A stretch of 64,000 bases of DNA, from positions 1,189,577 to 1,253,576 of the forward strand of contig CBDBZO010000002.1 in the NCBI GenBank assembly GCA_965213595.1, in the 5' to 3' direction. This DNA comes from Caldilineaceae bacterium (GTDB taxonomy: Bacteria; Chloroflexota; Anaerolineae; Caldilineales; Caldilineaceae). The notes beneath the pieces are model-generated. The model was not told where the DNA came from. It saw nothing but the letters and a program-made list of their open reading frames with translations, and did not search any database. Both the position numbers and the translations under genes were made by a program. Shown here piece after piece: positions 27,439 to 39,928 of the stretch; positions within the stretch are counted from its first letter, which is position 1; each line of letters starts with the position of its first letter.

Positions 27439-28493
27439 CACGTGAGGAAGTGCTTGGGCAGCGCTTTGAGATTGTGCAGCGAGGTGAGGCCGTCCACCAG
27501 CGGGGCCAAATCGCGCTCGCGGCCGCGCCATGCGCCGAAGGGATCGCTGGGTGTGCCGTCGCCGCTGAGGGTGCGCAGCGTGCTGAGCACGGCGTGGGGC
27601 AGCACCTCCAGGTGGTAGCCGCCCTCCAGCGCGCAGACGAGCCGCCCGTCGCACAGCTCGTCCGCCAGCGCCAGCAGCTCCTGCACCAGCGCCGTGTAGC
27701 CCACAATGCTCAGGTTGACGCCCGCCAGCGGGTCCATCCAGTGGGCATCGTAGCCCGCCGAGAGCAAAATCAGCCCCGGCTGAAAATCACGCGCCGCCGG
27801 GGCCAGCACGCGCCGAAAGGCATCGAGCACGCCCGCGTCGCCAGCCGCCGCAGGCAGCGGCACGTTGATGGTTGTGCCGTACGCAAATTCCGAGCCAATT
27901 TCCTCCGCCGCGCCCGTGCCGGGGTAGTAGGGGTACTGATGCGTACTGAAAAAGAGCACGGTGGGATCATCGTAGAAAATATCCTGCGTGCCGTTGCCGT
28001 GGTGCACATCAAAATCGACGATGAGGACGCGCTCGACGCCGTGCTGCTGCTGGGCATGGCGCGCCGCAACGGCGACGTTGGCAAGCAGGCAAAAGCCCAT
28101 GCCGCGGTGAGCCAGCGCGTGGTGGCCGGGCGGGCGCACGAGCGCGAAGCCGTTGTCCGCCTCTCCGCTCAGCACGGCGTCCGTCACCTGCAGGAGGCCG
28201 CCTACCGAACGCAACGCCGCCTCGTAAGAGTCCGGCCCGACGTAGGTGTCGCTGTCGAAGCGACCGCCGCCCTGCTCGGCCATCGTGCGCAGCCGCTCGA
28301 CGTGCTGCGGCGTGTGCACGGCCAGCAGGCTTTCGTGGCTCGCCGGGCAGCTCTGCACGCGCTGGAGACGTCGCACGATGCCGTCGCTCTGCAGCAGTGC
28401 CCACGTGGATTCGAGGCGTCGGTAATTTTCGGGGTGGCCCTCCTGCGTGTGGCGGCGGCTGAAGGGGTCGTATGTAAAGGCGGTGCGGGTCAT
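27438..28493 (-). CDS. histone deacetylase-family (AcuC/HDAC-like) amidohydrolase
   Basis: LVRPPGHHA...GFCLLANVA...[38 protein letters not shown]. Confidence 0.9.
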
Positions 28494-28780
28494 GGGGTTG
28501 CTTTTGCGTCTAGAATTGCGTAGGCTTTGACTTTAAGCAACGCAAACAGTTGATCCATCTGGACAAAACGGTCTAGCTCTACCTCTTCGTGTGTTGTCAG
28601 ATTGTCCCATCGATTGATTTCAATGAGTTCACTAAATCGCGCTTGTGCTTCGGGCGAGAATTTGTAGTTTGCAATCTCTTGTGTTGTGGGCCCACAGGCC
28701 AAAAATTCAAGCGCCTCTTCGTAAAATGGCAGCGAAGATTGAGTGCCACTCATTTGACTTTCCTCATCAAATTTGCACAT
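28490..28780 (-). CDS. hypothetical 96-aa helical protein (AT-rich cassette 1)
   Basis: [71 protein letters not shown]. Its stop overlaps the HDAC start (ATGA). Its start overlaps the XisI stop (TAATG). Confidence 0.55.
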
Positions 28781-29133
28781 TACTGCGCCGGTTGTAACGC
28801 CAGATACTCTGGGTGGCGCGCAAAGGCTTGATACTCGGGCGGCAAAAAGCTTAGAAAAATTCGTTCGGCGGGCACGCCCATCTCGACCAAGCGCGAGGCC
28901 ACGAAGTCTTCGGTATTGTTAGCCTGAATAATGATGTTGCCCTCTCGAATGTCGATATGCACGAGGCAGAAGTGAATCCGCCGTTCACCAGACCAGCCAA
29001 GATTCATCACAATATAGCGCTGTCGCTCGTCATCGAAAATCACTTCATCCTTCGAGTGCTGAGTTGAAATCTTTTCGTATTCGCTCAAAAGACGCTTAAC
29101 GCATTGCTGATGAAACTTGATACCGTTTCTCAT
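28780..29133 (-). CDS. XisI-family protein (no adjacent XisH)
   Basis: LLSEYEK...VIFDDERQRYIVMNLGWSGERRIHFCLVHIDIREGNIIIQANNTE...LVEMGVPAERIFLSF matches my memory of cyanobacterial XisI almost motif for motif. Confidence 0.75.
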   Translation of the reverse strand: MRNGIKFHQQCVKRLLSEYEKISTQHSKDEVIFDDERQRYIVMNLGWSGERRIHFCLVHIDIREGNIIIQANNTEDFVASRLVEMGVPAERIFLSFLPPEYQAFARHPEYLALQPAQ

Positions 29134-29157
29134 TTTGCCGAGTTATCTTTTCGCTTG

Positions 29158-30435
29158 TTAATCCCATCTGGAACTCACGTGAAAATCCTGGCGCAACTCT
29201 CTTGTCAAAGCAGCGGCAGCAGCCTGTGCTCCTGCTTCTTCCAAAGACAAGAGTCCGCCAGTAGCTGAGTTGGATGTAGCCTCATGGACATAGTAACCAC
29301 GATCAAACATAGCAACTGCGTAGTTCATCTTCAACAACGCTGCTGTTACTTCAGAATCCGACTCATATGTGACAACATTTGCAAAACCGAATATATCTTT
29401 GATCAATCCGTTTTCATCTCGCATGACAGAAGCCCTTGCTTCTACCGCTTGAATGGCTTCCCTTTTTGCAATGTGCAATGCCGCTTTGACTTTTATCAAA
29501 ACTTCTTTGCTAGGCTCCACAAGCTTAATTTGTGGTAGTGAATGCAGTGGCAAATCATCTATGCGCAGGTTGAATTTGCTTGAATCTATACCGACTAACT
29601 CTTCCAAAGCGAGCACTTTTGTATCCAGCACCGTCTGCAAGCTGTACTCTCGGCTATAATTGTTGGAACCACTATCATACATTTCTTTCAATTTTTTGAG
29701 AGTTGCATTTGCTTCATGGCTTTTTGTAACGATAATTATCACTTGATGAAAATCACAGATATCATCTTCGAGCCAGATGGGTAATCCAGAGTGATAAAAA
29801 TGCAGACGATGTTGATAAGGCCAGCGCCACTCTCTTTCATGCGTCCAATCGATTGGAGAACTACCCTCCAAATTTGTTGAAACATATCGATACTGCTCGC
29901 GGAGCGCTATACCGCATCTTGCAGCCAACGTCCGAAATCCTTGCCCAAAAAACTTGTCCTCAGCAGATGCCTCGGCAAACTCCGTTGAAAGACCGTAAAT
30001 TACTTGACGGCCTCCATACTTAAACAAATCTCGTCGCGGAACTGCAATTCCGTAAGTGTTTACAGCTTGTCTGTTGTTCCTCATTTTTGCATAGTTTACC
30101 AGGGCATATAGCGGCATTTCTGTAAAACAAACCGCTGCTCTTGGCCCATAGATTGTTGGTCTACTTTTACGAAATGACCAGTTCGCTTTAATGAATCCAT
30201 CAAACAGGATTTTATTCAGAACATCCAACGAATTACTCAAAGGATGCTCATCCTCGTATTCCTGTTCGAGAAAACTATAGTCAGAAAATTTCTTTTGTCC
30301 ACCCTCATCAAACCACAAGGGAATGCGGCCAGCATCATTTTTATATCGTTCTGGTATATCGTCTTCGTTTGGCTCACGTATGAAATGAATGAGCCATTCT
30401 GACAAGTCGATCCGTGAATTTAGTATGTGTTGCAT
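29158..30435 (-). CDS. 425-aa hypothetical protein: AbiGi-like N-terminal domain plus an unknown C-terminal half
   Basis: Motif order WLIHFIR ... AAVCFTEMPLYAL ... TYGIAVPRRDLFKYGGRQVIYG ... THEREWRWP. This resembles the AbiGi/DUF2971 abortive-infection families from memory. AT-rich: spot count 26/60 G+C at 29281-29340. Confidence 0.5.
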   Translation of the reverse strand: MQHILNSRIDLSEWLIHFIREPNEDDIPERYKNDAGRIPLWFDEGGQKKFSDYSFLEQEYEDEHPLSNSLDVLNKILFDGFIKANWSFRKSRPTIYGPRAAVCFTEMPLYALVNYAKMRNNRQAVNTYGIAVPRRDLFKYGGRQVIYGLSTEFAEASAEDKFFGQGFRTLAARCGIALREQYRYVSTNLEGSSPIDWTHEREWRWPYQHRLHFYHSGLPIWLEDDICDFHQVIIIVTKSHEANATLKKLKEMYDSGSNNYSREYSLQTVLDTKVLALEELVGIDSSKFNLRIDDLPLHSLPQIKLVEPSKEVLIKVKAALHIAKREAIQAVEARASVMRDENGLIKDIFGFANVVTYESDSEVTAALLKMNYAVAMFDRGYYVHEATSNSATGGLLSLEEAGAQAAAAALTRELRQDFHVSSRWD

Positions 30436-30490
30436 TTATAGTGCTGTTAGCTTATGAGCCGGTTCTATCTCTGAATTTTAAGTTCGAACT

Positions 30491-32257
30491 CTAAAATCCC
30501 ACCCGCACCCGCGTCGACTCGTCCCCATCGACCAGCTCAAATTGCAAATCGAAATTGAACTCGCCGCTGTTGACCGCCCGGATCGCATCATGCACCTGCA
30601 CGGGCGTTCCCGCGAGGCGACGGCTGAGCTGCACCGGCTGCGTGGTGTGCAGGGTGTCGCCGTCCCAGAAGAGGCTGAGCGGCGCGCTCGTGACGTCGTT
30701 TGCCAGCGGCAGGTCAAGCAGCGCCCACCACGACCACGCGTTGGGGCCTTCGCTCGGCCACGTCGGGTTGAGCCGCAGCTCGCCCTTGCGCCAGCGCAAA
30801 TCGAGCAGCGACCAGAGCGTCTCTCCCGTCAGCGCCGCGCCCGCCCACGGGTCGATAAAGTGCCAGGGCGCGTCGTCCGGCGTGTGCAAGGTCGCCGCGG
30901 CGGGTACACTTTCCTCGTCTGCCGCTTCGCCCCGCTTCTCCATCTCGCAGGCCTCGTTCTCCCAGCGCACGGTGTTGACGCCGTCGCCGCGCCACAGGGC
31001 AAAATCCTGGGCCGCGCGCAGCCCCCGCCCCGCGACCACGGCGTCCGCGGGCGAGAGCCGCTCGCGCAGGCGAATCAGCCATTCGCTGCAGAGCGAGACG
31101 GCCTCGGCGTGGTCGGCGAGCAGCTCGTCGCTGGGGTGGCGACGCAGGTGATTGCGCAGGGCGAGGAGGTAGGCGGCGTTGGTTTGGGGCAGGGCAGGGC
31201 CGGGGTCGCTCGGCTCGTCGCGTCGACGCAGCGGGAATTCTACGGGCACGCGGCCTTCGCTCCGTTGAGCCACGCGGCGCAGGTGAGCCAGCAGGTTGCG
31301 GCTCTCGGTCGGATCGACGAGGTCGAGCGTGGCCACCAGCGCGGGCACGTGGGCGACGTGGCGATCGCTCGGCGCGAGGCCGGTGCGCAGCCGCTGCACG
31401 TGTCGCAGCGCCGTCGCCTTGCTCTGCTGCACGCTGTGGTTGAGCGCCACGTCCGGCGTCCACAGGCGCGAGCGGCGCAGCGTCTCCTCCCAGCGGCTGA
31501 CGCTGCGGTCGTGTTCGCGCTCGCCGTCGCGCAGGGCCAGGAAGCCGCTCCACGCCACCTGCTCGCCCACGTCGCTCACGGTCAACATCAGCGGCACTTC
31601 GATTTCGCCGTTGACCAGCACGTGGTAGACCAGGTGCGCCGTGCTGTTTTCTTCACCGTCCTGCAAATCCAGCGAATCCGGGCGACCGTTGGGGTTGCCA
31701 AAAATGCGCGTGCTCTCGGCGTTGCTCTGCTCGTAGACGCCGCGCGCCGGGCCGGGCTCGCGCTGGGCCAGCAGCAGCCCGTCCACCATGCGCTGGTGCA
31801 GCGGCTCGCCCCAGTCGATATCGACCTCGATGCGGATCACGTGGTCGCCCTCGGCCTGGCAGTCGAGCGACCAGAGCACCGTGCGGTCGTAGTGGCTGTT
31901 GTAGGGCGCCAAAATGCGCTGGCTGATGATGATGCCCTCGCCGCCGCCGCCAAAGTCGCCGATGTTGCCGTAGATATTTTCCTGTGCGCCGGGAAAGTAG
32001 CGCACGGCCAGCGGCACAATCTCCTCCTCGTAGGGCGTGCTCACCGTCAGATCGACGCGGCGGGCGTAGACAGCATCCGTCCACGGCCAGCGCAGGTCGC
32101 GCAGGTTGCCGTCGCGGTCCGCGTGGAAGATCACGTCGTGGTTGGCAATACGGTAGCGCACGTCCGCGGCGAGCGCGTCGTAGTCGACGGTTTGCGGCCG
32201 GTCGAGCACGGGGTCAAGGTCGACGGCAGGGGGTGGGAGGGGAGCGGTGGTGGACAT
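30491..32257 (-). CDS. 588-aa hypothetical protein (possibly a beta-sandwich plus alpha/alpha-toroid glycoside-hydrolase-like fold)
   Basis: Long host-GC ORF with coding-like composition and no motif I can name. Start taken at ATG 32257; the ORF track uses TTG 32260. Confidence 0.6.
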   Translation of the reverse strand: MSTTAPLPPPAVDLDPVLDRPQTVDYDALAADVRYRIANHDVIFHADRDGNLRDLRWPWTDAVYARRVDLTVSTPYEEEIVPLAVRYFPGAQENIYGNIGDFGGGGEGIIISQRILAPYNSHYDRTVLWSLDCQAEGDHVIRIEVDIDWGEPLHQRMVDGLLLAQREPGPARGVYEQSNAESTRIFGNPNGRPDSLDLQDGEENSTAHLVYHVLVNGEIEVPLMLTVSDVGEQVAWSGFLALRDGEREHDRSVSRWEETLRRSRLWTPDVALNHSVQQSKATALRHVQRLRTGLAPSDRHVAHVPALVATLDLVDPTESRNLLAHLRRVAQRSEGRVPVEFPLRRRDEPSDPGPALPQTNAAYLLALRNHLRRHPSDELLADHAEAVSLCSEWLIRLRERLSPADAVVAGRGLRAAQDFALWRGDGVNTVRWENEACEMEKRGEAADEESVPAAATLHTPDDAPWHFIDPWAGAALTGETLWSLLDLRWRKGELRLNPTWPSEGPNAWSWWALLDLPLANDVTSAPLSLFWDGDTLHTTQPVQLSRRLAGTPVQVHDAIRAVNSGEFNFDLQFELVDGDESTRVRVGF

Positions 32258-32292
32258 CAAATAGTTGGTTCGTCGGTCAAAAAAGATGGAAC

Positions 32293-32346
32293 GCGGATTG
32301 GGCGGATTGGGCGGATTGGGCGGATTGGGCGGATGGAGGCGGATTT
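32293..32346. repeat. tandem 9-mer gcggattgg (4 perfect + 2 degenerate copies)
   Basis: Read directly. It lies at the left edge of AT-rich cassette 2. Confidence 0.9.
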
Positions 32347-32356
32347 AGAACCAGCT

Positions 32357-32566
32357 TCAGGCTACCTTTCGTGGTTCTACACCATGCTTTTCGCACATTT
32401 CTATAAAAAATTCGAGTGAGATTTCGCCCTCTCTATGCAGCCTCTCCCACTCAGTAGCGTAAAAGTCGGCCCCGCCGTTCAAGCCAAGAAATTCACCACG
32501 GTACATCTTGATTTCTGGGTCGTACTAGATATTAGCTTGATAGCCGTTAATTTCTATCGTGTTCAT
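32357..32566 (-). pseudogene. HicB-family antitoxin remnant: in-frame TAG at codon 14 and no C-terminal DNA-binding domain
   Basis: My translation is MNTIEINGYQANI*YDPEIKMYRGEFLGLNGGADFYATEWERLHREGEISLEFFIEMCEKHGVEPRKVA*. The pattern (GY..., Y.GE..GL.G...F.A....EL...F...I..FIE.C...G.EP) is that of the HicB N-domain. TAG at 32527..32525. Below the ORF-track size cutoff. Confidence 0.55.
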
Positions 32567-32725
32567 TATATTTCGCTCGTAGGAAATATAGAAGTGTCAT
32601 TTCGACCGTAGGGAGAAATCCGTTCATGGCCGACGAACAAGCCCTGTCGAATTAGCTGCGATGGTTCTTTAACGACCAATAAATTTTTCGCCACGCTTCG
32701 AAATGACAATTTCGCCCACTCTCCA

Positions 32726-32974
32726 TCACGCCGCAATCGGCAACAGCGGCTCGACCCGCCGCTCCGGTCGCTTGCGCGCCAAGTCGTAGACCGTCTGCAA
32801 GTTCATCCAGAATTCGGGCGTCGTCCCCAGCGCCTGCGACAGCCCCCACGCCGTCTGCGGCGTCACGCCGCGCTTGCCGTTGATCAGTTCGTTGACGCGC
32901 TGTGTCGGCACGCCGATGTGCTTGGCGAAGGCGACTTGGGAAAGCTCTATAAGTCTGAGAAATTCTTCCCACAA
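32726..32974 (-). CDS. HigA-family XRE-type HTH protein (antitoxin-like), with no HigB partner
   Basis: ILWEEFLRLIELSQVAFAKHIGVPTQRVNELINGKRGVTPQTAWGLSQALGTTPEFWMNLQTVYDL. A stop lies only 7 codons upstream of the TTG start, so the usual N-terminal approx 10 aa are missing. Confidence 0.75.
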   Translation of the reverse strand: MWEEFLRLIELSQVAFAKHIGVPTQRVNELINGKRGVTPQTAWGLSQALGTTPEFWMNLQTVYDLARKRPERRVEPLLPIAA

Positions 32975-33033
32975 AATTGCACTGGGGGCGAGTCAGGATG
33001 CGGCTTTTGGGAATCATAAGTAGCCTATCATAT

Positions 33034-34302
33034 TTACTGGTCAAAATATTTGGGTCGAGCAAGTACGTACGCATGAAACAAAGAATCTTTAAATCTATAA
33101 TATCGCTCTCTCACCTTCTCAATTTCAGCTCCATAATCTTCCGAACCCAACTGCCCAACATACTGACTGGGATTATCAACACCATACTGATTTATTGCTA
33201 CAGTATAAGCATCAGAAGTATAAATTTCTCCATCCGATCTTTGCGCTCCAGCCATAGCCCTCAATACAGATTCTCGCTGAGGTGAAGCGGATATACATTG
33301 CTTGTATCTTCCCTCTAATACAGGGTCCGCAGCTCGTTCAGCAATACCACGAAGAGTGTCATCAATATCGTCGATTGAGATTTCAAATTCGTTAGATGCA
33401 TATGCGTTATGTAATGCATATTTCCCGAGAAGGTGAACCATGTAAGGATGTCCTTGCGCAAGATTTACGATTCGCTCCTTCGCATTCTGTGTAAACGTGA
33501 TTTCCTTCTCCAAGCTGGCTTCGGCATTCTCAATAATCTCGATGAGTTCCTCATCAAACATTGGATGCAAATGTATAATACTACCAGCAAATAGTCGGTC
33601 TGTAGACTCATGTTCTTTCATCAAGTTCCTAATGTCTTGAGCAACTCCGACAATGCAAAACTTGACATTTGAAACGTTAGTAGCGAGAGATTTCATAATG
33701 GATGCGAATCCACTTGAATCCCTGATTTGATCGAATTCATCTATAACAATAAGAATACCATTTTCTGCCAAGTTTGCTGCTGCCATCGCAGACAACACAT
33801 TAGTAAAAACTGTATTAATGCTATGTGCAGAAATCGATGACTTGAAATCATCAGTTGACCCTGAGCTATATGCTACAGATAAAAGCTTTGCATCAACCTT
33901 CGGGTCCAAAGATTCTATTTCTCTGCGCGCAGCTGGAATATCATATATCCAGTCAGAAAGACAATCTCGTTTCGTTAACAATCTCTCTAACAATTCCTGG
34001 CAGTTGGAAACTGAGTTATCACACGCATAGTACATAGAAAGGAAGTCTAGTCTATCTTCATATGGCAACCCGAGTTTGTTAAGTAGCTCGTTATCTCCGT
34101 TTGCCAAATTAACTATCTGACGCGCAAGTGATGTCTTCCCAATGCCCCGATTGCCAATGATTGCGATATTGGTTCCACTTGAATGCAGCGCAAAATATGC
34201 GTTGTTTACTTCATCTACGCGACCAGCAAAACGGTCTGCGTTATCTATTTCTTTAGATGGCAGAAATGCATTCTCAATATCGGAAACCGTTAAACGTTTC
34301 AT
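33034..34302 (-). CDS. Orc1/Cdc6-like (AAA_16 / archaeal-ATPase type) P-loop NTPase with a C-terminal winged-helix-like region
   Basis: FAGRVDEVNNAYFAL...IAIIGNRGIGKTSLARQI (Walker A), ILIVIDEFDQI (Walker B), C-terminal ...YYRFKDSLFHAYVLAR. Start at ATG 34302 after SD ggagaaagg. Spot count 23/60 G+C at 33601-33660. Confidence 0.65.
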   Translation of the reverse strand: MKRLTVSDIENAFLPSKEIDNADRFAGRVDEVNNAYFALHSSGTNIAIIGNRGIGKTSLARQIVNLANGDNELLNKLGLPYEDRLDFLSMYYACDNSVSNCQELLERLLTKRDCLSDWIYDIPAARREIESLDPKVDAKLLSVAYSSGSTDDFKSSISAHSINTVFTNVLSAMAAANLAENGILIVIDEFDQIRDSSGFASIMKSLATNVSNVKFCIVGVAQDIRNLMKEHESTDRLFAGSIIHLHPMFDEELIEIIENAEASLEKEITFTQNAKERIVNLAQGHPYMVHLLGKYALHNAYASNEFEISIDDIDDTLRGIAERAADPVLEGRYKQCISASPQRESVLRAMAGAQRSDGEIYTSDAYTVAINQYGVDNPSQYVGQLGSEDYGAEIEKVRERYYRFKDSLFHAYVLARPKYFDQ

Positions 34303-34309
34303 CAAATGT

Positions 34310-34558
34310 TTACCTTTCTCCAAAAATTTCAGTATGATGCAAGAGTGGCTCAATAGCTAAATCTTCGTCAATTAACGGCCAGTGTATTTCATAACCAGAA
34401 GGGGAAATCTTGATATATTTACGCTCGTCTGTGGACGCCTGTGCGAGCCGCTGCGAGCATTCTTGCCACGGAATGCGGTACTTTTGTCCATCAACGGAAA
34501 GCATCAAAAACTCACCCGCTGTCGTCAAAACGGCAACGTCATGATGTTTTCTGCGCAT
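34310..34558 (-). CDS. DUF2442 domain protein
   Basis: LMLSVDGQKYRIPW...IKISPSGYEIHWPLIDEDLAIEPLL is the DUF2442 signature as I remember it. SD aaggag. No DUF4160 partner is present. Confidence 0.7.
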   Translation of the reverse strand: MRRKHHDVAVLTTAGEFLMLSVDGQKYRIPWQECSQRLAQASTDERKYIKISPSGYEIHWPLIDEDLAIEPLLHHTEIFGER

Positions 34559-34569
34559 CCTCTACTCCT

Positions 34570-34692
34570 TCACCCCGCCATCAATAGACCCAACCGCTCC
34601 CGCGTCGCCTCTTCTCGACCGACGATGTCGATAATCTGTCCATTATACATCACCGCGATCCGATCTGAAAGGGCGAAGATTTTGTCCAGCAT
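34570..34692 (-). pseudogene. orphan 3' fragment of an ABC-transporter ATPase gene
   Basis: (M)LDKIFALSDRIAVMYNGQIIDIVGREEATRERLGLLMAG* parallels the C-terminus of the resident ATPase at 35931 (ELDEILALADRIAVMYGGTIIDIVPRAEATREKLGLLMAGVKEQ*). Its codon usage is visibly more AT-rich. Confidence 0.7.
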
Positions 34693-34695
34693 CGC

Positions 34696-34746
34696 AAAAA
34701 AACAGGCGAGCAGAGTCAATCAATGTGCTCTGCTCGCTTGCTTTTT
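34696..34746 (-). terminator. bidirectional intrinsic terminator
   Basis: 13-bp stem caggcgagcagag/ctctgctcgcttg, flanked by aaaaaaa on one side and cttttt on the other. On the minus strand it follows the 34786..35568 gene. Confidence 0.7.
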
Positions 34747-34785
34747 CTGCTGTAACTGCATTGACGCAGCCGCCAAGCTGCTCGC

Positions 34786-35568
34786 CTACTCGAAGAGGTT
34801 GCCAAACTGACCCAGCACCGAGCCTTCGCCCTGGGATCGACCGCCGGGGGCCGCGGCGCGCATCACGCGCTCGGCCATGCGCGAGAAGGGCAGCGACTGG
34901 AGCCAAACGCGACCGGTGCCGCGCAGCGTGGTGAGGAAGAGCCCCTCGCCGCCGAAGACCATCGATTTGAGATTGCCCGCGCGCTCGATGCTGTAGTCGA
35001 TGGACTCCTCGAAGGCGACGAGACAGCCCGTATCGAGCATGAGCTTTTCGTTGTTGAGCCGCCGCTCGACCACCGTGCCGCCCGCCTGCACAAAGGCCAT
35101 GCCGTCGCCCTGGAGCTTCTGCAGGATAAAGCCTTCGCCGCCGAAGAAGCCCGCGCCCAGCCGCTGGTTGAAGGCAATGGTAACGCGCGTACCCAGCGCG
35201 GCGGCCAGGAAGGCATCCTTCTGGCAGAGCAGCGTGCCGCCGACCGAGGTCAGGTCGATGGGCGTGATCTTGCCGGGGTAGGGCGCGGCAAAGGCGACGC
35301 GCTTTTTGCCGCCGCCATGATTGGTGAAGTGGGTCATAAAGAGCGATTCGCCCGTCAGCGCGCGTTTGCCCACTCCGATCAGCTTGTCCATAAAGCCCGA
35401 AGAGGGATTCGAGCCGTCGCCCATCTTGGTCTCGAAGACGATGCCGTCCTCCATAAACATCATCATCCCCGCCTCGGCGATCACCGTCTCGCGCGGATCC
35501 AGCTCGACTTCAACGAACTGCATGTCATCGCCGCGAATTTCATAGTCAACTTCGTGACTGCGTTGCAT
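34786..35568 (-). CDS. AIM24/TIGR00266-family (DUF124) protein
   Basis: [19 protein letters not shown]...[11 protein letters not shown]...[22 protein letters not shown]...[24 protein letters not shown]. Confidence 0.8.
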
Positions 35569-35744
35569 GATATAACCTCCAAGTTTCCAGTTGCCGATTC
35601 TAGAGTCGGTTTCTACTGTTTAGGACGTGCAAAGATGCGATACGTGAGAAGGCGCGTTGAGGTTGCGTTTTTACGCACTCATGCGTATCAAGTTAAGGTT
35701 ATGGAAACGGGTGAAAGACGCTCTACCCCGGTAGATTGCCTTTT

Positions 35745-35842
35745 CACCCCCTCCCAGCCTCCCCCAATTTGGGGGAGGAGCCGATGCTTCGTCTACCTAA
35801 TTGCAGCTCCCTCCCCAAATTGGGGAGGGGTGGGGAGGGGTT
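35745..35842. repeat. REP-like palindromes (cctcccccaatttgggggagg; ctccctccccaaattggggagggg)
   Basis: Read directly. Confidence 0.7.
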
Positions 35843-35930
35843 CTGAGGCAATCTGCCCACCCAAGTTCATCTTTTCGCGCTTAGCTTGATACCTATGAGG
35901 TTGCGTTTTCACGTCCTGCCCATTCACGGC

Positions 35931-37523
35931 TCACTGTTCCTTTACGCCGGCCATCAACAATCCCAGCTTTTCCCGCGTGGCTTCGGCACGCGGCACGATG
36001 TCGATGATGGTGCCGCCGTACATGACGGCAATGCGGTCGGCCAGGGCCAAGATTTCGTCCAGCTCGGCGCTGACGACGAGCACGGCGACGCCTTCGTCGC
36101 GCTTGGCGACGATTTGGCTGTGAATGAACTCGATGGAGCCGACGTCGATGCCGCGGGTGGGCTGGGCGGTGACGAGCAGCTTGAGCGGGCGGCTAAATTC
36201 CCTCGCCACAACCATCTTCTGCTGGTTGCCGCCGCTCAGGCTGCCCGCCGGCGTGCGGACGCTCGGCGTGCGCACGTCGAACTGCTCGACCAACTCGCGG
36301 GCGTGCTCGCGGATCGCGCGCTGGTCGACCGTCGCGCCGCGCGAGAAGGGACGCTGGTAATAGGTGTTGAGCACCATATTCTGCGCCACCGGGTAGGCGC
36401 TGACCATGCCGTAGGCGTGGCGATCCTCCGGCACGTGCGAGACCTGGCCCGCCTCGGTGATCTTGCGCGGCGAGGCGTTCGTCACGTCGACGCCGTCGAT
36501 GGCGACCGTGCCCGCATCGGCGTGGCGTAAGCCCGTCAGCACCTCGACCAGCTCGGTCTGGCCGTTGCCCTGCACGCCCGCCACGCCGACAATTTCGCCC
36601 GCGCGCACGTCAAGCGTCACGCCGCGTAACGCCGGTTCGCCCAGGTCGTCCTTCGCGGCCAAATCGCGAATTTCGAGGATGGCGCGTTCGGGTGCAGCGG
36701 CCTCCTTGTCGACGGTCAGCAGCACGTCGCGGCCCACCATGAGCGAGGCCAAATCGCCTTCGCTGGCCGTCTTGGGGTCGGCCTCGCCCACCAGTTTACC
36801 GCCGCGCAGCACGGCCACGCGGTCCGCAATGCGCAGCACCTCCTTGAGCTTGTGGGTGATAAAGATGATCGACTTGCCCTGCTCGCGCAGCCGCCCCATG
36901 ACCTCGAACAGCCCGTCGATTTCCTGCGGCGTGAGCACGGCCGTCGGCTCGTCCAGAATCAGAATGTCGGCGTTGCGATAGAGCGCCTTCACAATCTCGA
37001 CCCGCTGGCGTGCGCCCACGGGCAAATCCTCGATCACGGCGTGGGGATTCACGTCCAGGCCATAGCGCTGCGAAAGCTCGCTGATGCGGTTGGCGACGGT
37101 GCGCCGGTCGAGAAAGCCACCCTTCAGCGTCTCGCTGCCGAGCATGATGTTCTCGGCCACCGTCATCACCGGCACGAGCTGGAAGTGCTGATGCACCATG
37201 CCGATGCCCAGGTCGATGGCGTCGCGCGGCGAGTTCATCTTGACGACGTTGCCATTCACAAGCACCTCGCCCTCGCTCGGATGATAGAGCCCGTAGACGA
37301 CGTTCATCAGCGTCGACTTGCCCGCGCCATTTTCGCCCAGCAGCGCGAGGATTTCGCCGCGGTGCAGCGTGAGGTTGACATCCTCGTTGGCGATGACGCC
37401 GGGGAAGCGCTTGGTGATGTGTCGGGTTTCGAGGACGGGAGGGGTGGGTGAGGTCACGGTGGGTTTGGGAAGGAAAGATGAAAGATTAAAGATTGAATGC
37501 CAATGGTTTAGGGTAAAATTCAC
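35931..37523 (-). CDS. ABC transporter ATP-binding protein, duplicated ATPase (BMP/sugar-type, RbsA-like)
   Basis: Two cassettes: GENGAGKSTLMN...LSGGNQQK-type signature ...LILDEPT. An alternative GTG start at 37457 would remove the 38-nt overlap with the upstream gene. Confidence 0.9.
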   Translation of the reverse strand: MNFTLNHWHSIFNLSSFLPKPTVTSPTPPVLETRHITKRFPGVIANEDVNLTLHRGEILALLGENGAGKSTLMNVVYGLYHPSEGEVLVNGNVVKMNSPRDAIDLGIGMVHQHFQLVPVMTVAENIMLGSETLKGGFLDRRTVANRISELSQRYGLDVNPHAVIEDLPVGARQRVEIVKALYRNADILILDEPTAVLTPQEIDGLFEVMGRLREQGKSIIFITHKLKEVLRIADRVAVLRGGKLVGEADPKTASEGDLASLMVGRDVLLTVDKEAAAPERAILEIRDLAAKDDLGEPALRGVTLDVRAGEIVGVAGVQGNGQTELVEVLTGLRHADAGTVAIDGVDVTNASPRKITEAGQVSHVPEDRHAYGMVSAYPVAQNMVLNTYYQRPFSRGATVDQRAIREHARELVEQFDVRTPSVRTPAGSLSGGNQQKMVVAREFSRPLKLLVTAQPTRGIDVGSIEFIHSQIVAKRDEGVAVLVVSAELDEILALADRIAVMYGGTIIDIVPRAEATREKLGLLMAGVKEQ

Positions 37524-38340
37524 TGGCTGAATGGGTATATGTCGTATTGGCGATGGGCCATTTCTGCTGGAATACGGTTGGGTGCGGTGCGCCTCGCGGA
37601 ACCAGTATCAAGTGGGGCTCGCCATTGCCCCAGGGCAGGTGCGCTGACGTAATGCGGTTGTCCAAAGGGACATCAAAGTAGAAAAGATAGGGCGCAATCC
37701 ACTCGATATACTCCGCAGCATCAACATCAGATGCTGTCTCAATTTGAAGCTGATCCGGCTGACGAGCAATGGCGCGTTGAAATTCCACCGCGTTTAGCGG
37801 CTGGGCATCCAAAAACGGTGTTGCATCCCACTGCCCATCGACCAATATCCATTGTTGCCGCTTAGGCAAATATGCTTCTGCCACCACATAGCCCGCGCCC
37901 GTCTCGCGCGTTTCGCAATCCTCAGTTTTTAGCGCGAGAAACCGCGTCGGAATTCCCAGCGCCGTCAGCGCGCCCACGATCACAATCGAGTATTCCACAC
38001 AGCGGAAATTTGCCCCTGCCTTGGCTTCGCGCAGAATGGTCAGCGGGTCGTTTTGGCTCGGCTCGTTCCATCCGTCATGCGTCCACAGATTGTGCGCCCA
38101 GGTTCGTACGGCGCGCACGGTTTTGTACTCGTTGTCAACCGATCCAATCAGCCTATCCAACTCGTGCTCGCTTCGCAACTGCTGCAAGTAGGGTTCGTTG
38201 GCTTGGCTCCACTGAAACGTGTACTTGTTTCCGGTAGACTCTTGGGTGAACTTTAGTGGTTTTACTGATGGTTGAGACACTTCGACTGCTTTCTTACATT
38301 TCACACCGCCTCGCGTGTAGTTGGAGGGCGCGCCCTCCAA
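37486..38340 (-). CDS. transglutaminase-like (papain-fold) domain protein, catalytic His apparently replaced
   Basis: ANFRCVEYSIVIVGALTALGIPTRFL...GAGYVVAEAYLPKRQQWILVDGQWD. The Cys and Asp positions fit the transglutaminase-core pattern, but Tyr sits where His is expected. Intermediate GC (29/60 at 37681-37740). The exact start is uncertain. Confidence 0.55.
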   Translation of the reverse strand: MEGAPSNYTRGGVKCKKAVEVSQPSVKPLKFTQESTGNKYTFQWSQANEPYLQQLRSEHELDRLIGSVDNEYKTVRAVRTWAHNLWTHDGWNEPSQNDPLTILREAKAGANFRCVEYSIVIVGALTALGIPTRFLALKTEDCETRETGAGYVVAEAYLPKRQQWILVDGQWDATPFLDAQPLNAVEFQRAIARQPDQLQIETASDVDAAEYIEWIAPYLFYFDVPLDNRITSAHLPWGNGEPHLILVPRGAPHPTVFQQKWPIANTTYTHSASEFYPKPLAFNL

Positions 38341-38379
38341 CTACACGCGAGCACAAACGGTTCGCTGCATAAACACCAG

Positions 38380-39420
38380 TCACTCCGTCTCGTACACCTG
38401 ACCCTCAGCCGCTGGTGGCCTAACCCGCCCCACCAATCCCGCAACGGCGACAATCGTCACCACATACGGAATCATGGCGACGAACTGCCTGGGCAGCAGC
38501 GTGACGCCGGCGAGCAGCAGTTCGTTTTGCAGCGCCTGGGTGTAGCCAAAGAGCAGCGCCGCGCCCAGCGCGCCAAAGGGGTTCCAGTTGCCAAAAATCA
38601 TGGCGGCCAGCGAGATAAAGCCGCGTCCCGCCGTCATCCCCTCCTGAAACTGGCCGACGGCTTCGAGCACGAGAAAGCCGCCGCCCAGCCCGGCCAGCGC
38701 GCCGCCAATCGTGGTGTTGACGTAGCGGTAGCGGTTGACGTTGATGCCGACGGTGTCCGCCGCCGAGGGGTGCTCGCCGACGGCGCGCGTGCGCAGCCCC
38801 CAGCGCGTGTAGAAGAGCGCGATGTGGACGACGACGACCAGAAGCAGCGCGGTGTAGGTTAGCGGCGGGTTGTTGAAGAGTACGTCGCCAATCACGGGGA
38901 TTTGGCCCAGCAGCGGAATCTCGACGGGGATAAAGCGGCCCGTGGCCACGGCGTCGCGGTCGAAGAGGTAGGCGGTGATGCCCGTGGCGAGGATAATGAT
39001 GACCGTGCCGGAGATGATCTGGTCCATGCGGAAGCGGATCGAGAGCACGGCGTGGAGCAGCCCCATGGCCCCGCCAATCAGCAGCGCTGCCAGCACACCG
39101 ACACCCAGGCTGGCGTAGAGCGCCCACTCGTTGGTTGCTACTTTGGCAACAAAGGCGGCAAACGCGCCCGCCAGCATCATCCCCTCGATGCCAATGTTGA
39201 TGATGCCCGATCGTTCGCACAGAATGCCGCTCAGCGCGCCCAAAATCAGCGGCACGGCGGCGCGCAGCATAAAGTTGAGCGCGCTCACGCCAAAGAGCAC
39301 GCGCAGCGCCGTCACCTGCCGCAGGTCGGTGGCGTTGACGAGAATCGCCATCACCAAAACGGCGATGGTGAAAGCAATGGCGAGAATCGAGGAGGTTTTC
39401 CAAATTCGCAAATTACGCAT
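38380..39420 (-). CDS. ABC transporter permease (BMP-type, second permease)
   Basis: Multi-TM text, ...ILCERSGIINIGIEGMMLAGAF.... Start trimmed to ATG 39420 (MRNLRIWK...) because the ORF-track extension to 39567 crosses repeat sequence. Confidence 0.85.
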   Translation of the reverse strand: MRNLRIWKTSSILAIAFTIAVLVMAILVNATDLRQVTALRVLFGVSALNFMLRAAVPLILGALSGILCERSGIINIGIEGMMLAGAFAAFVAKVATNEWALYASLGVGVLAALLIGGAMGLLHAVLSIRFRMDQIISGTVIIILATGITAYLFDRDAVATGRFIPVEIPLLGQIPVIGDVLFNNPPLTYTALLLVVVVHIALFYTRWGLRTRAVGEHPSAADTVGINVNRYRYVNTTIGGALAGLGGGFLVLEAVGQFQEGMTAGRGFISLAAMIFGNWNPFGALGAALLFGYTQALQNELLLAGVTLLPRQFVAMIPYVVTIVAVAGLVGRVRPPAAEGQVYETE

Positions 39421-39547
39421 AGAATTCACCTTTTCAACGCGGAGAGCGCGGAGAAGGCGCGGAGGGCCGCAGAGTTTGAGAGAAATGGTATTTAACGAAC
39501 CAATCGTAAATCGCAAATCCAAAATCACCCCCCGCCCCAGCCGCTGC

Positions 39548-39928
39548 TCAAATTGGTTTGCTTCCATGCTCGCACTTGTTCTTCAACTTTTTGAGAGCTT
39601 GGTCGATTTCGTCCTCGCGGATGCGCAGGCGGAAGAGCCAGCGAATGATGGCGGGCGCGGCCACAAAGGTGAGCACCAGCGCTTGGATCACCTGGATGAT
39701 GTCGGCGGCGACGCCCGAATCAAATGTAGCAATTAAGATGCATTCGCGCCGCGCCCGCGTCCAGCGCGCCGAGATCACCTGGATGATGTCGGCGGCGACG
39801 CCCGAATCAAACTGCATTCGCGCCGCGCCCGCGTCCAGCGCGCCCAGGAGAAACGAGGATGATGCCGAGCGGGTTGGTTTGCCCCAGCAGCGCCACGGTG
39901 ATGCCGTCGAAGCCAACGCCGCCGCCAA
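39548..39928 (-). CDS. C-terminal fragment of the first BMP-type ABC permease (other frame), containing a 29-codon duplication-insertion
   Basis: ...FLLGALDAGAARMQFDSGVAADIIQVI[SARWTRARRECILIATFDSGVAADIIQVI]QALVLTFVAAPAIIRWLFRLR. Confidence 0.7.
   Translation of the reverse strand: MAAALASTASPWRCWGKPTRSASSSFLLGALDAGAARMQFDSGVAADIIQVISARWTRARRECILIATFDSGVAADIIQVIQALVLTFVAAPAIIRWLFRLRIREDEIDQALKKLKNKCEHGSKPI
39725..39811. repeat. 87-nt in-frame partial tandem duplication inside the permease gene
   Basis: X=gatcacctggatgatgtcggcggcgacgcccgaatcaaa occurs at 39686-39724 and 39773-39811. Y=cattcgcgccgcgcccgcgtccagcgcgcc occurs at 39741-39770 and 39815-39844. A 16-nt AT-rich filler tgtagcaattaagatg lies at 39725-39740. 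Confidence 0.9.

What the first reader, a model, noticed from the sequence alone, without database searches (positions are those of the whole stretch)
28490..30470. AT-rich cassette 1: AbiGi-like 425-aa protein, orphan XisI and a 96-aa helical protein
The G+C content drops sharply in this stretch. My spot counts are 26/60 at 29281-29340 versus 45/60 at 27481-27540 in the neighbouring HDAC gene. Three minus-strand genes are packed tightly here. The 425-aa protein has the ordered motifs WLIHFIR / CFTEMPL / YGIAV..GGRQVIYG / HEREWR. I associate these with AbiGi/DUF2971-type abortive-infection proteins. Its roughly 180-aa C-terminal half is unfamiliar to me, and no AbiGii partner gene is present. 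After a 24-nt gap comes a clear XisI-family protein without the usual XisH partner. The XisI stop overlaps the start of the 96-aa gene (TAATG). This three-gene combination is not one I know as a described defence or toxin-antitoxin system. It looks like a horizontally acquired module, so it is a candidate novel abortive-infection or addiction-type system.
Basis: partly seen in the sequence, partly recalled or inferred. Interest (0 to 1): 0.72.

Follow-up and report, generated by a model that had tools for sequence, protein, structure and literature searches.

The report
Foreign insert: solo ART-like gene, two orphans
A 2-kb piece of foreign, AT-rich DNA sits between two conserved host genes; it carries one gene from a large unnamed family that looks like a distant cousin of known phage-defence ADP-ribosyltransferases, plus two small genes that have lost their usual nuclease partners, and the three do not form a recurring system.

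Summary
Three tightly packed minus-strand genes lie in a 1,997-bp segment of 44% G+C. The window averages 61% G+C.

- **Insertion.** Two related metagenome loci keep the same gene order (589-aa gene, HDAC, TPR, NDK). They have only about 45-50 nt where the cassette sits, so the cassette is an insertion.
- **Three-gene system: not supported.** 97 loci (1.3 Mb) encode relatives of the 425-aa protein. None has an XisI gene or a relative of the 96-aa protein nearby.
- **XisI.** Its usual partner is XisH.
- **The 96-aa family.** It has no Pfam model. In all eight contexts checked it sits directly upstream of a small HNH endonuclease, which is absent here.
- **"AbiGi-like": partly right.**
  - The 425-aa protein hits no Pfam, NCBIfam or PADLOC model.
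  - Its relatives give consistent near-threshold AbiGi and DUF2971 hits in one register.
  - Its motifs (IHF, CFTEM, VIYG, ExE) fit that ADP-ribosyltransferase-like group.
  - 19 of 25 weak Foldseek hits are ART folds, led by DarT.
- **The family.** It has at least 1,000 full-length members. It usually occurs alone, often in defence islands, and sometimes directly beside Gabija or inside type I RM operons.

Likely a solo abortive-infection-type effector. The enzyme activity is inferred, not shown.

The parts
28494..30490 (.). Low-G+C insertion (44.1% G+C), lying exactly between the stop codon of the conserved 589-aa host gene and the start codon of the HDAC gene.
   Evidence: Composition profiles and GC3 values. 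The syntenic loci L094 and L095 have only about 45-50 nt at this junction. No flanking direct repeats were found.
29158..30435 (-). Gene for the 425-aa protein, a member of a large family with no Pfam model (usually 405-430 aa). It keeps 78 of the 85 positions that are at least 90% conserved in the family.
   Evidence: AF2 model with pLDDT 86 and pTM 0.87.
29731..30435 (-). N-terminal domain (aa 1-235): a divergent ADP-ribosyltransferase-like domain related to AbiGi, DUF2971 and DarT. This assignment is inferred.
   Evidence: Near-threshold AbiGi and DUF2971 hits from relatives. BLASTP E = 6e-15 to a 200-aa protein that PGAP annotates as DUF2971. 19 of the 25 listed Foldseek PDB hits are ART folds, none of them significant. 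Literature: PMC12522546.
30385..30387 (-). His17 codon in the IHF motif on strand beta-1. Candidate ART motif I.
   Evidence: Nearly invariant in alignment A1 and in distant subfamilies. Strand 14-18 in the model. The motif assignment is inferred.
30118..30129 (-). Codons for C103-F-T-E106 (CFTE) on a strand followed by a helix. Candidate ART motif II region.
   Evidence: Invariant in A1. This stretch aligns to positions about 28-76 of the AbiGi profile in relatives. Strand 101-106 and helix 109-119 in the model.
29830..29838 (-). Codons for E200-R-E202, the ExE within HEREWR, at the start of a strand. Candidate ART motif III with the catalytic glutamate.
   Evidence: Invariant in A1 and across subfamilies. 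Aligns to positions about 127-159 of the AbiGi profile and to the end of the DUF2971 profile. ExE is described as the DUF2971 motif III in PMC12522546.
29158..29730 (-). C-terminal domain (aa 236-425). It is specific to this family and conserved within it. It has a confident alpha/beta model, no match in the PDB and an unknown role; a sensor or regulator role is proposed.
   Evidence: Other branches of the superfamily carry DUF4427 or short tails in its place.
28780..29133 (-). XisI-family gene (117 aa) with no XisH gene beside it.
   Evidence: PF08869, E = 5.6e-29, 101 bits. PDB XisI-like chains 2nlv, 2nwv and 3d7q at E = 1e-18 to 4e-14. Neither neighbour hits XisH.
28490..28780 (-). Small helical protein gene. 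The ORF is 96 aa; the probable product is 87 aa starting at the ATG at 28753-28751. It belongs to a family with no Pfam model that normally precedes a small HNH endonuclease gene, which is absent here.
28760..28765 (-). GAGGAA Shine-Dalgarno-like sequence, 6 nt upstream of the internal ATG (Met10) of the small gene.
   Evidence: Read directly from the sequence. The database holds the 87-aa form.
28490..28493 (-). ATGA overlap: the stop codon of the small gene overlaps the start codon of the HDAC gene. This is the downstream junction of the insertion.
   Evidence: Sequence. HDAC is PF00850, E = 5e-97.
30473..30498 (.). AT-rich imperfect palindrome spanning the stop codon of the 589-aa gene, at the upstream junction of the insertion. 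Its significance is unknown.
   Evidence: Inverted repeat I8. Sequence.

Best explanation
Positions 28494-30490 are a horizontally acquired insertion into a conserved host gene block. The insertion is a mosaic of three functionally unrelated cargo genes, not a three-component system.

1. **The 425-aa protein.** It belongs to a widespread, unnamed two-domain family.
   - Its N-terminal ~235 residues are a highly divergent ADP-ribosyltransferase-fold domain. The domain belongs to the AbiGi / DUF2971 / DarT-like group.
   - The candidate catalytic residues are His17 (IHF), an invariant Tyr (Y147 or Y96) and Glu200-x-Glu202.
   - I propose it acts alone as an abortive-infection-type effector. On phage infection the family-specific C-terminal domain would release the N-domain, which would use NAD+ to ADP-ribosylate a nucleic acid or an essential protein and so stop phage or host gene expression.
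2. **XisI.** This is an orphan copy of the partner of the XisH nuclease.
3. **The 87/96-aa protein.** This is an orphan copy of the upstream, antitoxin-like partner of a small HNH endonuclease.

The two small genes are most simply leftover or immunity-type halves of two different selfish two-gene modules.

**Shown:** the insertion, the family memberships, the absence of co-occurrence, and the usual partners of each small gene.

**Inferred:** the ART fold, NAD+ use, the target, a defence role, and the sensor role of the C-domain.
For: **Insertion**
- G+C is 0.44 against 0.61 for the window. GC3 is 0.39-0.59 against 0.72-0.88 in host genes.
- L094 and L095 (HDAC 62-64% identical) keep the order 589-aa gene, HDAC, TPR, NDK. 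Their junction is about 45-50 nt and carries no cassette.

**Not a system**
- 97 loci (1.30 Mb) with relatives of the 425-aa protein have no XisI. They also have no 96-aa family member by tblastn or by a profile search.
- No partner is conserved around the family.
- On cyanobacterial plasmids XisI is usually directly preceded by XisH, the two genes overlapping: 10 of the 25 listed hits have XisH under the match, and two more adjacencies were seen directly.
- The 96-aa family precedes a small HNH gene in 8 of 8 contexts, often with a 4-nt overlap.
- Some longer members of the 96-aa family carry an Arc/RHH-like N-terminus, as antitoxins often do.

**ART-like N-domain**
- Relatives give near-threshold AbiGi and DUF2971 hits in one consistent register.
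- BLASTP gives E = 6e-15 to a 200-aa protein that PGAP names as DUF2971.
- 19 of the 25 weak Foldseek hits of the N-domain model are ART folds, with DarT first.
- The motifs sit on the expected strands of the model.
- AbiGi and DUF2971 are described as DarT-like ARTs with an ExE motif III (PMC12522546).

**Defence role**
- AbiG is an experimentally validated Abi system. Aristaios, a single DUF2971 gene with an ART fold, is a validated anti-phage system (PMC11381338, PMC13064643).
- Relatives of the 425-aa protein lie directly beside bona fide GajA and GajB on the same strand in 6 loci.
- Short forms lie between hsdS and hsdR in type I RM operons.
- Relatives also occur in defence islands, on plasmids and on viral contigs.

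**Likely functional**
- The window protein keeps 78 of the 85 conserved positions, including every motif residue.
Against: - The window protein matches no AbiGi or DUF2971 model, even at E <= 5.
- No Foldseek hit to any ART structure is significant. The best is E = 0.7, with TM-scores of 0.22-0.30.
- A profile search against PDB sequences found nothing.
- No experiment exists on any member of this family.
- Some homologues sit among housekeeping genes with no defence context.
- The tight packing of the three genes on one strand is also what an operon would look like.
- Only about 100 of at least 1,000 homologue loci were inspected.
- No promoter was found in the 55-nt upstream spacer.
Confidence: 0.55

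Rival explanations
1. One reading: the three genes form one new toxin-antitoxin or abortive-infection system. The 425-aa protein would be the toxin or effector. XisI and/or the small helical protein would have been recruited as its antitoxin or regulator.
For: - The genes share a strand and lie close together: a 24-nt gap, then a 1-nt overlap or a 26-nt gap.
- Both small proteins come from families that pair with nucleases in two-gene modules, so they are antitoxin-like.
- XisI occupies the position just downstream of the 425-aa gene, where it would normally follow XisH.
- All three arrived in a single low-G+C block.
Against: - None of 97 loci carrying a relative of the 425-aa protein contains either small-gene family, and this includes the closest relatives.
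- The family is usually solo.
- Each small gene has a different conserved partner elsewhere.
- XisI has GC3 of 0.59 against 0.39 and 0.42 for its neighbours, which hints at separate histories, although the genes are short.
- Orphan XisI genes also occur elsewhere.
Confidence: 0.08
2. The 425-aa family is not an enzyme of the ART type. The shared motifs would reflect some other activity, for example a nuclease or a nucleic-acid-binding regulator. Its role may also not be phage defence; it could be plain selfish or mobile-element cargo.
For: - No significant structural match to any ART.
- All profile hits fall below the curated cut-offs.
- Some homologues have no defence neighbours.
Against: - The weak Foldseek hits are strongly enriched for ART folds: 19 of 25.
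- The register of the AbiGi and DUF2971 matches is the same in several independent relatives.
- The order of motifs (H, then Y, then ExE) and their placement on strands fit the published DUF2971 description (PMC12522546).
- The family lies tightly beside Gabija and inside type I RM operons in several lineages.
Confidence: 0.25
3. The cassette is decaying junk or an assembly artefact: non-functional remnants of mobile DNA, or a chimeric join.
For: - Both small genes lack their usual partners.
- No promoter was recognised upstream of the 425-aa gene.
- No integrase, tRNA-type attachment site or flanking repeat was found.
Against: - All three ORFs are intact and full length compared with their homologues.
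- 78 of the 85 conserved positions are retained.
- The host genes on both sides are intact and syntenic with relatives, and the joins fall exactly at gene boundaries.
- The HDAC start is now coupled to the stop of the small gene. Transcription through the cassette is therefore probably needed to express HDAC.
Confidence: 0.07

Closest known systems
AbiGi (Pfam PF10899), the first protein of the lactococcal AbiG abortive-infection system (AbiGi + AbiGii)
   Same: - Same order of core motifs: a C-F-T/S-E strand followed by a helix, then E-x-E-W-R.
- Relatives of the window protein reach 20.9 bits on PF10899 (cut-off 22.4) and E = 1.3e-4 on the PADLOC AbiGi model, in a consistent register.
- AbiGi is counted among ART-like families (PMC12522546).
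- AbiGi likewise has no significant match in the PDB (PMC13064643).
   Different: - The window protein itself does not hit the model.
- It has no AbiGii partner.
- It carries a ~190-aa C-terminal domain specific to its own family.
- It is usually encoded alone.
- Its taxonomic range is different: Cyanobacteria, Bacteroidota, Proteobacteria, Acidobacteria and Chloroflexota.
DUF2971 (PF11185), including Aristaios, a single-gene lactococcal anti-phage system of 316 aa
   Same: - A stand-alone protein with a predicted ART fold, a strictly conserved Tyr and an ExE motif III (PMC12522546). Aristaios gives experimentally shown defence as one gene (PMC11381338).
- 6 of 32 family members and one divergent relative touch PF11185, the best at 18.3 bits and E = 0.006.
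- BLASTP gives E = 6e-15 to a protein that PGAP names as DUF2971.
   Different: - The hits are below the gathering threshold.
- The PGAP-named protein does not itself reach PF11185 in the 2025 Pfam release.
- The C-terminal domain is different.
- There are no experimental data for this family.
DarT, the ssDNA thymidine ADP-ribosyltransferase toxin of the DarTG system
   Same: - DarT structures are the top Foldseek hits of the N-domain model (7yk3, 7omy, 7omv, 7omw, 7omx, 8baq).
- AbiGi and DUF2971 are reported to be similar to DarT (PMC12522546).
- DarTG defends by ADP-ribosylating phage DNA (LeRoux 2022, as cited in PMC13064643).
   Different: - E-values are 0.7-9 and TM-scores 0.22-0.30, so none is significant.
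- There is no macrodomain (DarG) partner, and no macrodomain in the C-terminal half.
- Membership is not supported; this is only a working analogy.
N-domain + DUF4427 (PF14468) proteins, for example in Salmonella enterica subsp. diarizonae and Nostoc
   Same: The same N-domain with all its motifs, and a similar overall length of about 420 aa. One of these proteins also lies next to a Gabija-like gene pair (L072).
   Different: The C-terminal half is a different domain: DUF4427 at E = 2e-70 in the Salmonella protein, and absent from the window protein. No paper in the searched library mentions DUF4427.
XisH-XisI pairs of cyanobacteria (fdxN element excision factors)
   Same: The middle gene is a typical XisI, with sequence matches to solved XisI-like structures.
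   Different: XisH, a PD-(D/E)XK-type protein (PMC3424549), is missing from the cassette and no XisF-type recombinase gene lies in it. The rest of the window was not searched for either.
Small helical protein + small HNH endonuclease two-gene modules (unnamed; common on cyanobacterial plasmids and chromosomes)
   Same: The 87/96-aa protein is a clear member of the upstream-partner family: 431 representatives at E <= 1e-3, and 56% identity to the closest short forms.
   Different: The HNH gene is absent here, and the small gene's stop codon runs into the HDAC start codon instead. The window protein also lacks the RHH-like N-terminal extension seen in the ~125-135-aa forms.

Membership tests
AbiGi (PF10899) | Scores at or above the Pfam gathering cut-off (22.4 bits) on the family profile | tested here: not met
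   The window protein gives no hit at E <= 1, and none at E <= 5 when scanned as a member of A1. The best relative reaches 20.9 bits (L053). The PADLOC AbiGi model gives no hit for the window protein and E = 1.3e-4 for L053.
AbiGi (PF10899) | Encoded next to an AbiGii partner, as in the two-gene AbiG system | tested here: not met
   The neighbours are a host 589-aa gene and XisI. No partner is conserved across 97 loci. A HEPN_AbiU2-type neighbour occurs only in two Bradyrhizobium loci.
DUF2971 (PF11185) | Scores at or above the Pfam gathering cut-off (22 bits) | tested here: not met
   The window protein gives no hit. 6 of 32 family members hit only at E >= 0.39. The best result is a divergent relative at 18.3 bits, E = 0.006.
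ADP-ribosyltransferase superfamily (H-Y-E / R-S-E clades) | Three ordered motifs on the core strands: His or Arg on beta-1, Tyr or S-x-S on the next core strand, and a catalytic Glu (often ExE) at the start of a later strand | tested here: inconclusive
   Invariant or near-invariant residues are H17 (strand 14-18), Y96, C103-F-T (strand 101-106, then a helix), Y147, and E200-R-E202 (strand 201-206). The order and placement fit, but the assignment was made by eye and not from a significant alignment to a known ART.
ADP-ribosyltransferase superfamily (H-Y-E / R-S-E clades) | Significant structural similarity to a solved ART fold | tested here: inconclusive
   The full-length model finds nothing. 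With the N-domain model, 19 of the 25 listed hits are ART folds (DarT, Tpt1/KptA, exotoxin A, Jlx, NarE, AvrPphF), but the best E-value is 0.7 and TM-scores are at most 0.30.
ADP-ribosyltransferase superfamily (H-Y-E / R-S-E clades) | NAD+ binding and ADP-ribosyl transfer activity | not testable with these tools
   This needs biochemistry.
XisI (PF08869) | Scores above the Pfam cut-off over the full domain | tested here: met
   101.2 bits against a cut-off of 25, covering residues 6-104 of the protein and positions 5-105 of the 110-position profile. PDB XisI-like chains match at E = 1e-18.
XisH-XisI module | An XisH gene directly upstream of XisI, usually overlapping it | tested here: not met
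   The upstream gene is the 425-aa protein and the downstream gene is the small helical protein. Neither hits XisH. Canonical pairs were seen.
HNH-partner small helical protein family (unnamed) | Sequence membership in the family | tested here: met
   An exhaustive phmmer search gives 431 representatives at E <= 1e-3, the best at 3e-19. The protein scores E = 3.7e-28 against the family profile.
HNH-partner small helical protein family (unnamed) | A small HNH endonuclease gene immediately downstream | tested here: not met
   Present in 8 of 8 other contexts. In the window the downstream gene is HDAC (PF00850), with an ATGA overlap.
Catalogued defence systems (PADLOC-DB v2.0.0) | Any component matches a system model | tested here: not met
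   Only chance-level hits: Cas7 at E = 0.013 and PDC-M29A at E = 0.031. DefenseFinder and later catalogues were not available.

The most novel reading that the evidence does not exclude
In this genome the orphan XisI and/or the orphan HNH-partner protein have been re-used as brakes (antitoxins or regulators) on the ART-like 425-aa effector. That would make a newly assembled three-gene addiction or abortive-infection module built from parts of three unrelated systems.

A less extreme novel reading has a probability of about 0.4. The 425-aa family would be a widespread, undescribed single-protein anti-phage system. It would combine a very divergent ART domain with a C-terminal sensor of a fold not represented in the PDB, and in some lineages it would work as a third gene of Gabija.
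Probability: 0.07. Interest if true: 0.7.

Novelty: new variant of a known kind. Interest (0 to 1): 0.42.

Why it matters
**If the main reading holds**
- A family of at least 1,000 proteins now labelled "hypothetical", spread over many phyla, gets a testable assignment. It would be a new branch of the AbiGi / DUF2971 / DarT-like ADP-ribosyltransferases.
- It would have its own C-terminal domain and a likely role in phage defence.
- Its tight linkage to Gabija and to type I RM operons suggests that accessory ART genes may extend those systems.

**A second product of the work**
- The small helical family without a Pfam model is now recognised as the regular upstream partner of small HNH endonucleases. 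This is a common, undescribed, toxin-antitoxin-like module in cyanobacteria.

**For the scan itself**
- Tight packing inside a foreign island is not evidence of a system. Here it reflects a mosaic of one solo gene and two orphaned partner genes.

Tried and rejected
**Searches with the 425-aa protein or its family that found nothing useful**
- Pfam, NCBIfam, PADLOC and PHROGs scans: no real hit.
- phmmer, and a family-profile search, against PDB sequences: nothing.
- Foldseek of the full-length model against the PDB: best E = 4.3.
- tblastn of the C-terminal half against phage genomes: no match.

**Attempts to bridge to DUF2971**
- I compared the family profile with E. coli YagK by hhalign, because I recalled YagK as a DUF2971 protein. 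The probability was 0.2%. Either my recollection is wrong or a single sequence is too weak, so I dropped this line.
- The Paenibacillus protein that PGAP names as DUF2971 does not reach PF11185 in the current Pfam release. It is only a soft bridge.

**Searches for partners and context**
- A jackhmmer search for an AbiGii/HEPN-type partner around family members found one only in Bradyrhizobium.
- The "GajC" of a 2026 paper turned out to be MazF-like and unrelated to this family.
- I looked for attachment-site-like direct repeats, an integrase, or a promoter or terminator bounding the cassette. None was convincing.
- The word-index homology search with the 96-aa protein alone found only itself. 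The exhaustive search was needed instead.

Full report
**1. The observation**

They are 29158-30435 (425 aa), 28780-29133 (117 aa) and 28490-28780 (96 aa). The quoted motifs are all in the translation.

The two spot G+C counts are exact: 26/60 and 45/60. The segment 28494-30490 is 44.1% G+C. The mean of 2-kb windows is 61.0% (sd 4.4%), so this segment ties for the lowest in the window. Third-position G+C is 0.39, 0.59 and 0.42 in the three genes, against 0.72-0.88 in the flanking host genes.

Two details need adjusting.
- The TAATG overlap exists. However, the small gene more probably starts at Met10, the ATG at 28753-28751. That ATG has a GAGGAA Shine-Dalgarno sequence 6 nt upstream. The protein database holds the 87-aa form, and the nearest homologues align from residue 12.
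- The small gene's stop codon overlaps the HDAC start codon, as ATGA at 28490-28493.

**2. It is an insertion**

A metagenome scan with the HDAC protein recovered two related loci, L094 and L095. Their HDAC is 62-64% identical and their NDK about 72% identical to the window's. They keep the order 589-aa gene, HDAC, TPR protein, NDK.

In both loci the stop of the 589-aa gene and the HDAC start are about 45-50 nt apart at host-like G+C. In the window the same junction holds 1,997 bp of low-G+C DNA. The joins fall right after the TAG of the 589-aa gene and within about 10 nt of the HDAC ATG.

No flanking direct repeats, integrase gene or tRNA-type attachment site were found. The only feature is an AT-rich palindrome over the upstream junction. 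No sigma-70-like promoter lies in the 55-nt spacer upstream of the 425-aa gene, and there is no terminator on the minus strand. The cassette and HDAC are therefore probably read from upstream; this is an inference.

The other side of the 589-aa gene has also received a low-G+C insertion that the relatives lack.

**3. The 425-aa protein**

*No named family.* The protein hits nothing in Pfam, NCBIfam, PADLOC or PHROGs. It also hits nothing in the PDB by sequence.

*A large family.* It is far from unique. The homology search returned 1,000 proteins at E <= 0.001. The 120 listed match over at least 86% of the query (nearly all over 98-100%) and are 373-451 aa long (most 405-430), and every one that carries a name is called "hypothetical". 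They come from Cyanobacteria, Bacteroidota, Acidobacteria, Pseudomonas, Bradyrhizobium, Planctomycetes and others. The best non-self match is 48% identical. The "unfamiliar C-terminal half" is thus a conserved part of the family.

*Conserved residues.* Invariant positions are concentrated in the N-terminal ~235 residues: near-invariant H17 (IHF), invariant Y96-G97, C103-F-T-E-M107, G141, R143, V-I-Y-G148, R168, E180, R183, W197 and E-R-E-W-R-W (200-205). The window protein keeps 78 of the 85 positions that are at least 90% conserved, including all of these.

*Variable C-termini.* A genome scan gave 79 loci. The N-domain also occurs with other C-terminal parts:
- short forms of 260-290 aa;
- forms of about 420 aa whose C-terminal half is DUF4427 (Salmonella E = 2e-70; Nostoc);
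- minimal proteins of about 200 aa.

A constant, highly conserved N-domain with variable C-terminal parts is the usual layout of an effector joined to a regulator; this is an inference.

**4. Is the N-domain AbiGi- or DUF2971-like?**

It is not a member by the curated cut-offs, but it is very likely a distant relative.
- *Pfam AbiGi.* Relatives score 20.9 bits, E = 4e-4, against a cut-off of 22.4. The CFTEMP stretch aligns to profile positions 28-76. Three other relatives place the CFT stretch or the EREWR stretch at the matching profile positions.
- *PADLOC AbiGi.* The model gives E = 1.3e-4 over residues 73-183, which aligns to model positions 62-176.
- *Pfam DUF2971.* One relative scores 18.3 bits, E = 0.006, aligning from the CFT stretch to the EREWR stretch. 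Six of 32 family members touch the profile weakly.
- *Pairwise.* The window protein aligns at BLASTP E = 6e-15 (residues 68-204) with a 200-aa Paenibacillus plasmid protein that PGAP names "DUF2971 domain-containing". That protein does not itself reach PF11185 in the 2025 Pfam release.
- *Literature.* A 2025 survey classes AbiGi and DUF2971 as ADP-ribosyltransferase-like and similar to DarT. It describes DUF2971 as having a weakly conserved His, a strict Tyr and an ExE motif III (PMC12522546). The motifs here fit that pattern, and they sit on the expected strands of the AF2 models (pLDDT 86 and 79).
- *Structure search.* Foldseek of the full-length model found nothing in the PDB. The N-domain model gave no significant hit either. 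Even so, 19 of the 25 listed hits are ART folds: six DarT entries at the top, then Tpt1/KptA, exotoxin A, Jlx, NarE and AvrPphF. The best E-value is 0.7 and TM-scores are 0.22-0.30. A 2026 review reports the same lack of PDB matches for AbiGi itself (PMC13064643).

I rate the ART-fold assignment at about 0.7. Actual NAD+-dependent transferase activity remains an inference.

**5. Context of the family**

No partner gene is conserved. Recurrent neighbours are defence or mobility genes.
- *Gabija.* Bona fide GajA (984 bits) and GajB (729 bits) lie directly beside the family gene, on the same strand, in L018, L024, L062, L072 and L081. The spacing runs from an 8-nt overlap to a gap of 233 nt; in L081 the family gene lies upstream of GajA. 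In L177 one gene separates them.
- *Type I RM.* Short forms sit between hsdS and hsdR (L063, L064), and HsdM-like genes are nearby in 6 loci.
- *Helicase.* A NERD-UvrD helicase lies just upstream in L194.
- *Defence islands.* Examples occur in Pseudomonas and Bradyrhizobium, with nSTAND, HepT/MNT, HEPN_AbiU2 and JAB/E1 genes.
- *Mobile elements.* The family occurs on plasmids and on 8 IMG/VR contigs.
- *Solo copies.* Some copies sit alone among housekeeping genes.

Two relevant systems have experimental support. AbiG is a validated Abi system. Aristaios, a single DUF2971 gene with an ART fold, is a validated anti-phage system that affects phage transcription (PMC11381338, PMC13064643).

**6. 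The two small genes**

*XisI.* The 117-aa protein is a typical XisI (PF08869, 101 bits; PDB XisI-like chains at 1e-18). On cyanobacterial plasmids XisI is usually directly preceded by XisH, with the two genes overlapping. Orphan XisI genes also exist. In the window neither neighbour is XisH.

*The small helical protein.* The 96-aa protein had no detectable relatives in the word-index search. An exhaustive HMMER search found 431 representatives, mostly cyanobacterial and with no Pfam or NCBIfam model. Many are 125-135 aa long with an extra N-terminal segment, which in one case scores as Arc/RHH-like (E = 8e-4).

In every context examined the gene lies immediately upstream of a small HNH endonuclease of 81-142 aa (PF01844), often with a 4-nt overlap. 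Those contexts are three metagenome sets, three plasmids and two further annotated plasmid hits. This looks like a toxin-antitoxin-type pair; that is an inference. The window has no HNH gene, and there is no room for a remnant of one.

**7. Are the three genes a system?**

97 loci (1.30 Mb) carry relatives of the 425-aa protein, including its closest relatives. None contains an XisI by tblastn at E <= 0.1. None contains a member of the small helical family, by tblastn or by a profile search at E <= 0.01.

The combination is therefore specific to this insertion. It consists of one solo effector-type gene and two partner genes that have each lost a different nuclease. Co-option of the orphans as regulators of the 425-aa protein cannot be excluded, but nothing supports it beyond proximity.

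**8. Verdict**

- *Observation:* confirmed.
- *Interpretation:* partly supported. The cassette is foreign, XisI is an orphan, and there is a distant AbiGi/DUF2971 relationship. The three-gene system is not supported, and the C-terminal half is not unusual within its family.
- *Most likely function:* a stand-alone abortive-infection-type ADP-ribosyltransferase-like effector with a family-specific C-terminal regulator, flanked by two orphaned module halves.
- *Novelty:* a new variant of a known kind. The family is undescribed, but single-gene ART-like defence proteins (Aristaios), AbiG and DarT set the precedent.
- *Interest:* moderate. The most useful leads are the family itself, its linkage to Gabija and RM systems, and the unnamed HNH-partner module.

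Noticed in passing
window 32261-35930 (low-G+C core about 32400-34700): A second low-G+C insertion lies on the other side of the 589-aa gene. It carries a 439-aa STAND/AAA-type NTPase (33034-34353; nSTAND1 E = 2e-9; GC3 0.35). Beside it is an 82-aa HTH_3 protein with host-like GC3 of 0.83 (32726-32974). In L094 and L095 the 530-aa gene and the 589-aa gene are adjacent, so this block is also absent from the relatives.
   Followed up: partly
L018 4239-9257; L024 4247-9248; L062 4011-9227; L072 3924-9242; L081 7977-12943; L177 1852-8245: Relatives of the 425-aa protein lie directly beside bona fide GajA and GajB on the same strand. This includes a 27%-identical branch and a DUF4427-type branch. 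In L018 the family gene overlaps the GajB stop codon by 8 nt. This may be a three-gene Gabija variant. It is not the MazF-like GajC described in PMC13069673.
   Followed up: partly
L063 4162-12090; L064 5163-13393: Short (~275-aa) forms of the N-domain lie between hsdS and hsdR inside type I restriction-modification operons. The anticodon nuclease PrrC occupies the same kind of position in its own RM operon; that comparison is from my own knowledge.
   Followed up: no
L086 1647-2359; L089-L091; L092 4001-4643; L174 1384-2181; L175 1399-2175; L176 1369-2120: A widespread two-gene module with no Pfam model, mainly in cyanobacteria. A small helical protein, often with an RHH-like N-terminus, is directly followed by a small HNH endonuclease of 81-142 aa, often with a 4-nt overlap. 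It looks like a toxin-antitoxin pair. I did not search the paper library for this module.
   Followed up: partly
Foldseek BFVD hits to the 425-aa model: Six uncharacterised phage proteins of 113-137 aa match about 120 columns of the model. Probabilities are 0.97-1.00, target TM-scores 0.50-0.66, and identity 16-22%. Their size suggests the C-terminal sub-domain, but the tool does not report the query range. They could be decoys, inhibitors or simply a shared fold.
   Followed up: no
L179 6132-6911 and L030 7128-7913: In two Bradyrhizobium loci a HEPN_AbiU2 (PF18734) protein is encoded about 90 nt upstream of the family gene. A review notes that AbiGii resembles the HEPN protein AbiUii, so this pair may be a local analogue of AbiGi-AbiGii. 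It was not seen in any other lineage.
   Followed up: partly
window 32293-32337: Four tandem copies of the 9-nt unit GCGGATTGG (CCAATCCGC on the minus strand). They lie 33-77 nt upstream of the start of the 589-aa gene, at the edge of the second insertion.
   Followed up: no
L192 1-3306 (Euhalothece plasmid pEu2): An XisH-XisI pair and a Uma2-family endonuclease gene sit between hsdM and hsdS of a type I RM operon. In this setting XisH-XisI behaves like selfish or defence-island cargo rather than a developmental excision factor.
   Followed up: no
window 37524-38379: The gap between two conserved genes (35931-37523 and 38380-39567) is about 860 nt in the window but about 50-80 nt in L094 and L095. 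This may be a third small insertion in the same syntenic block.
   Followed up: no
window 34697-34746: A 19-nt inverted repeat, 89% complementary with a 12-nt loop, flanked by A- and T-runs. It looks like a bidirectional terminator and lies at the far edge of the second low-G+C insertion.
   Followed up: no
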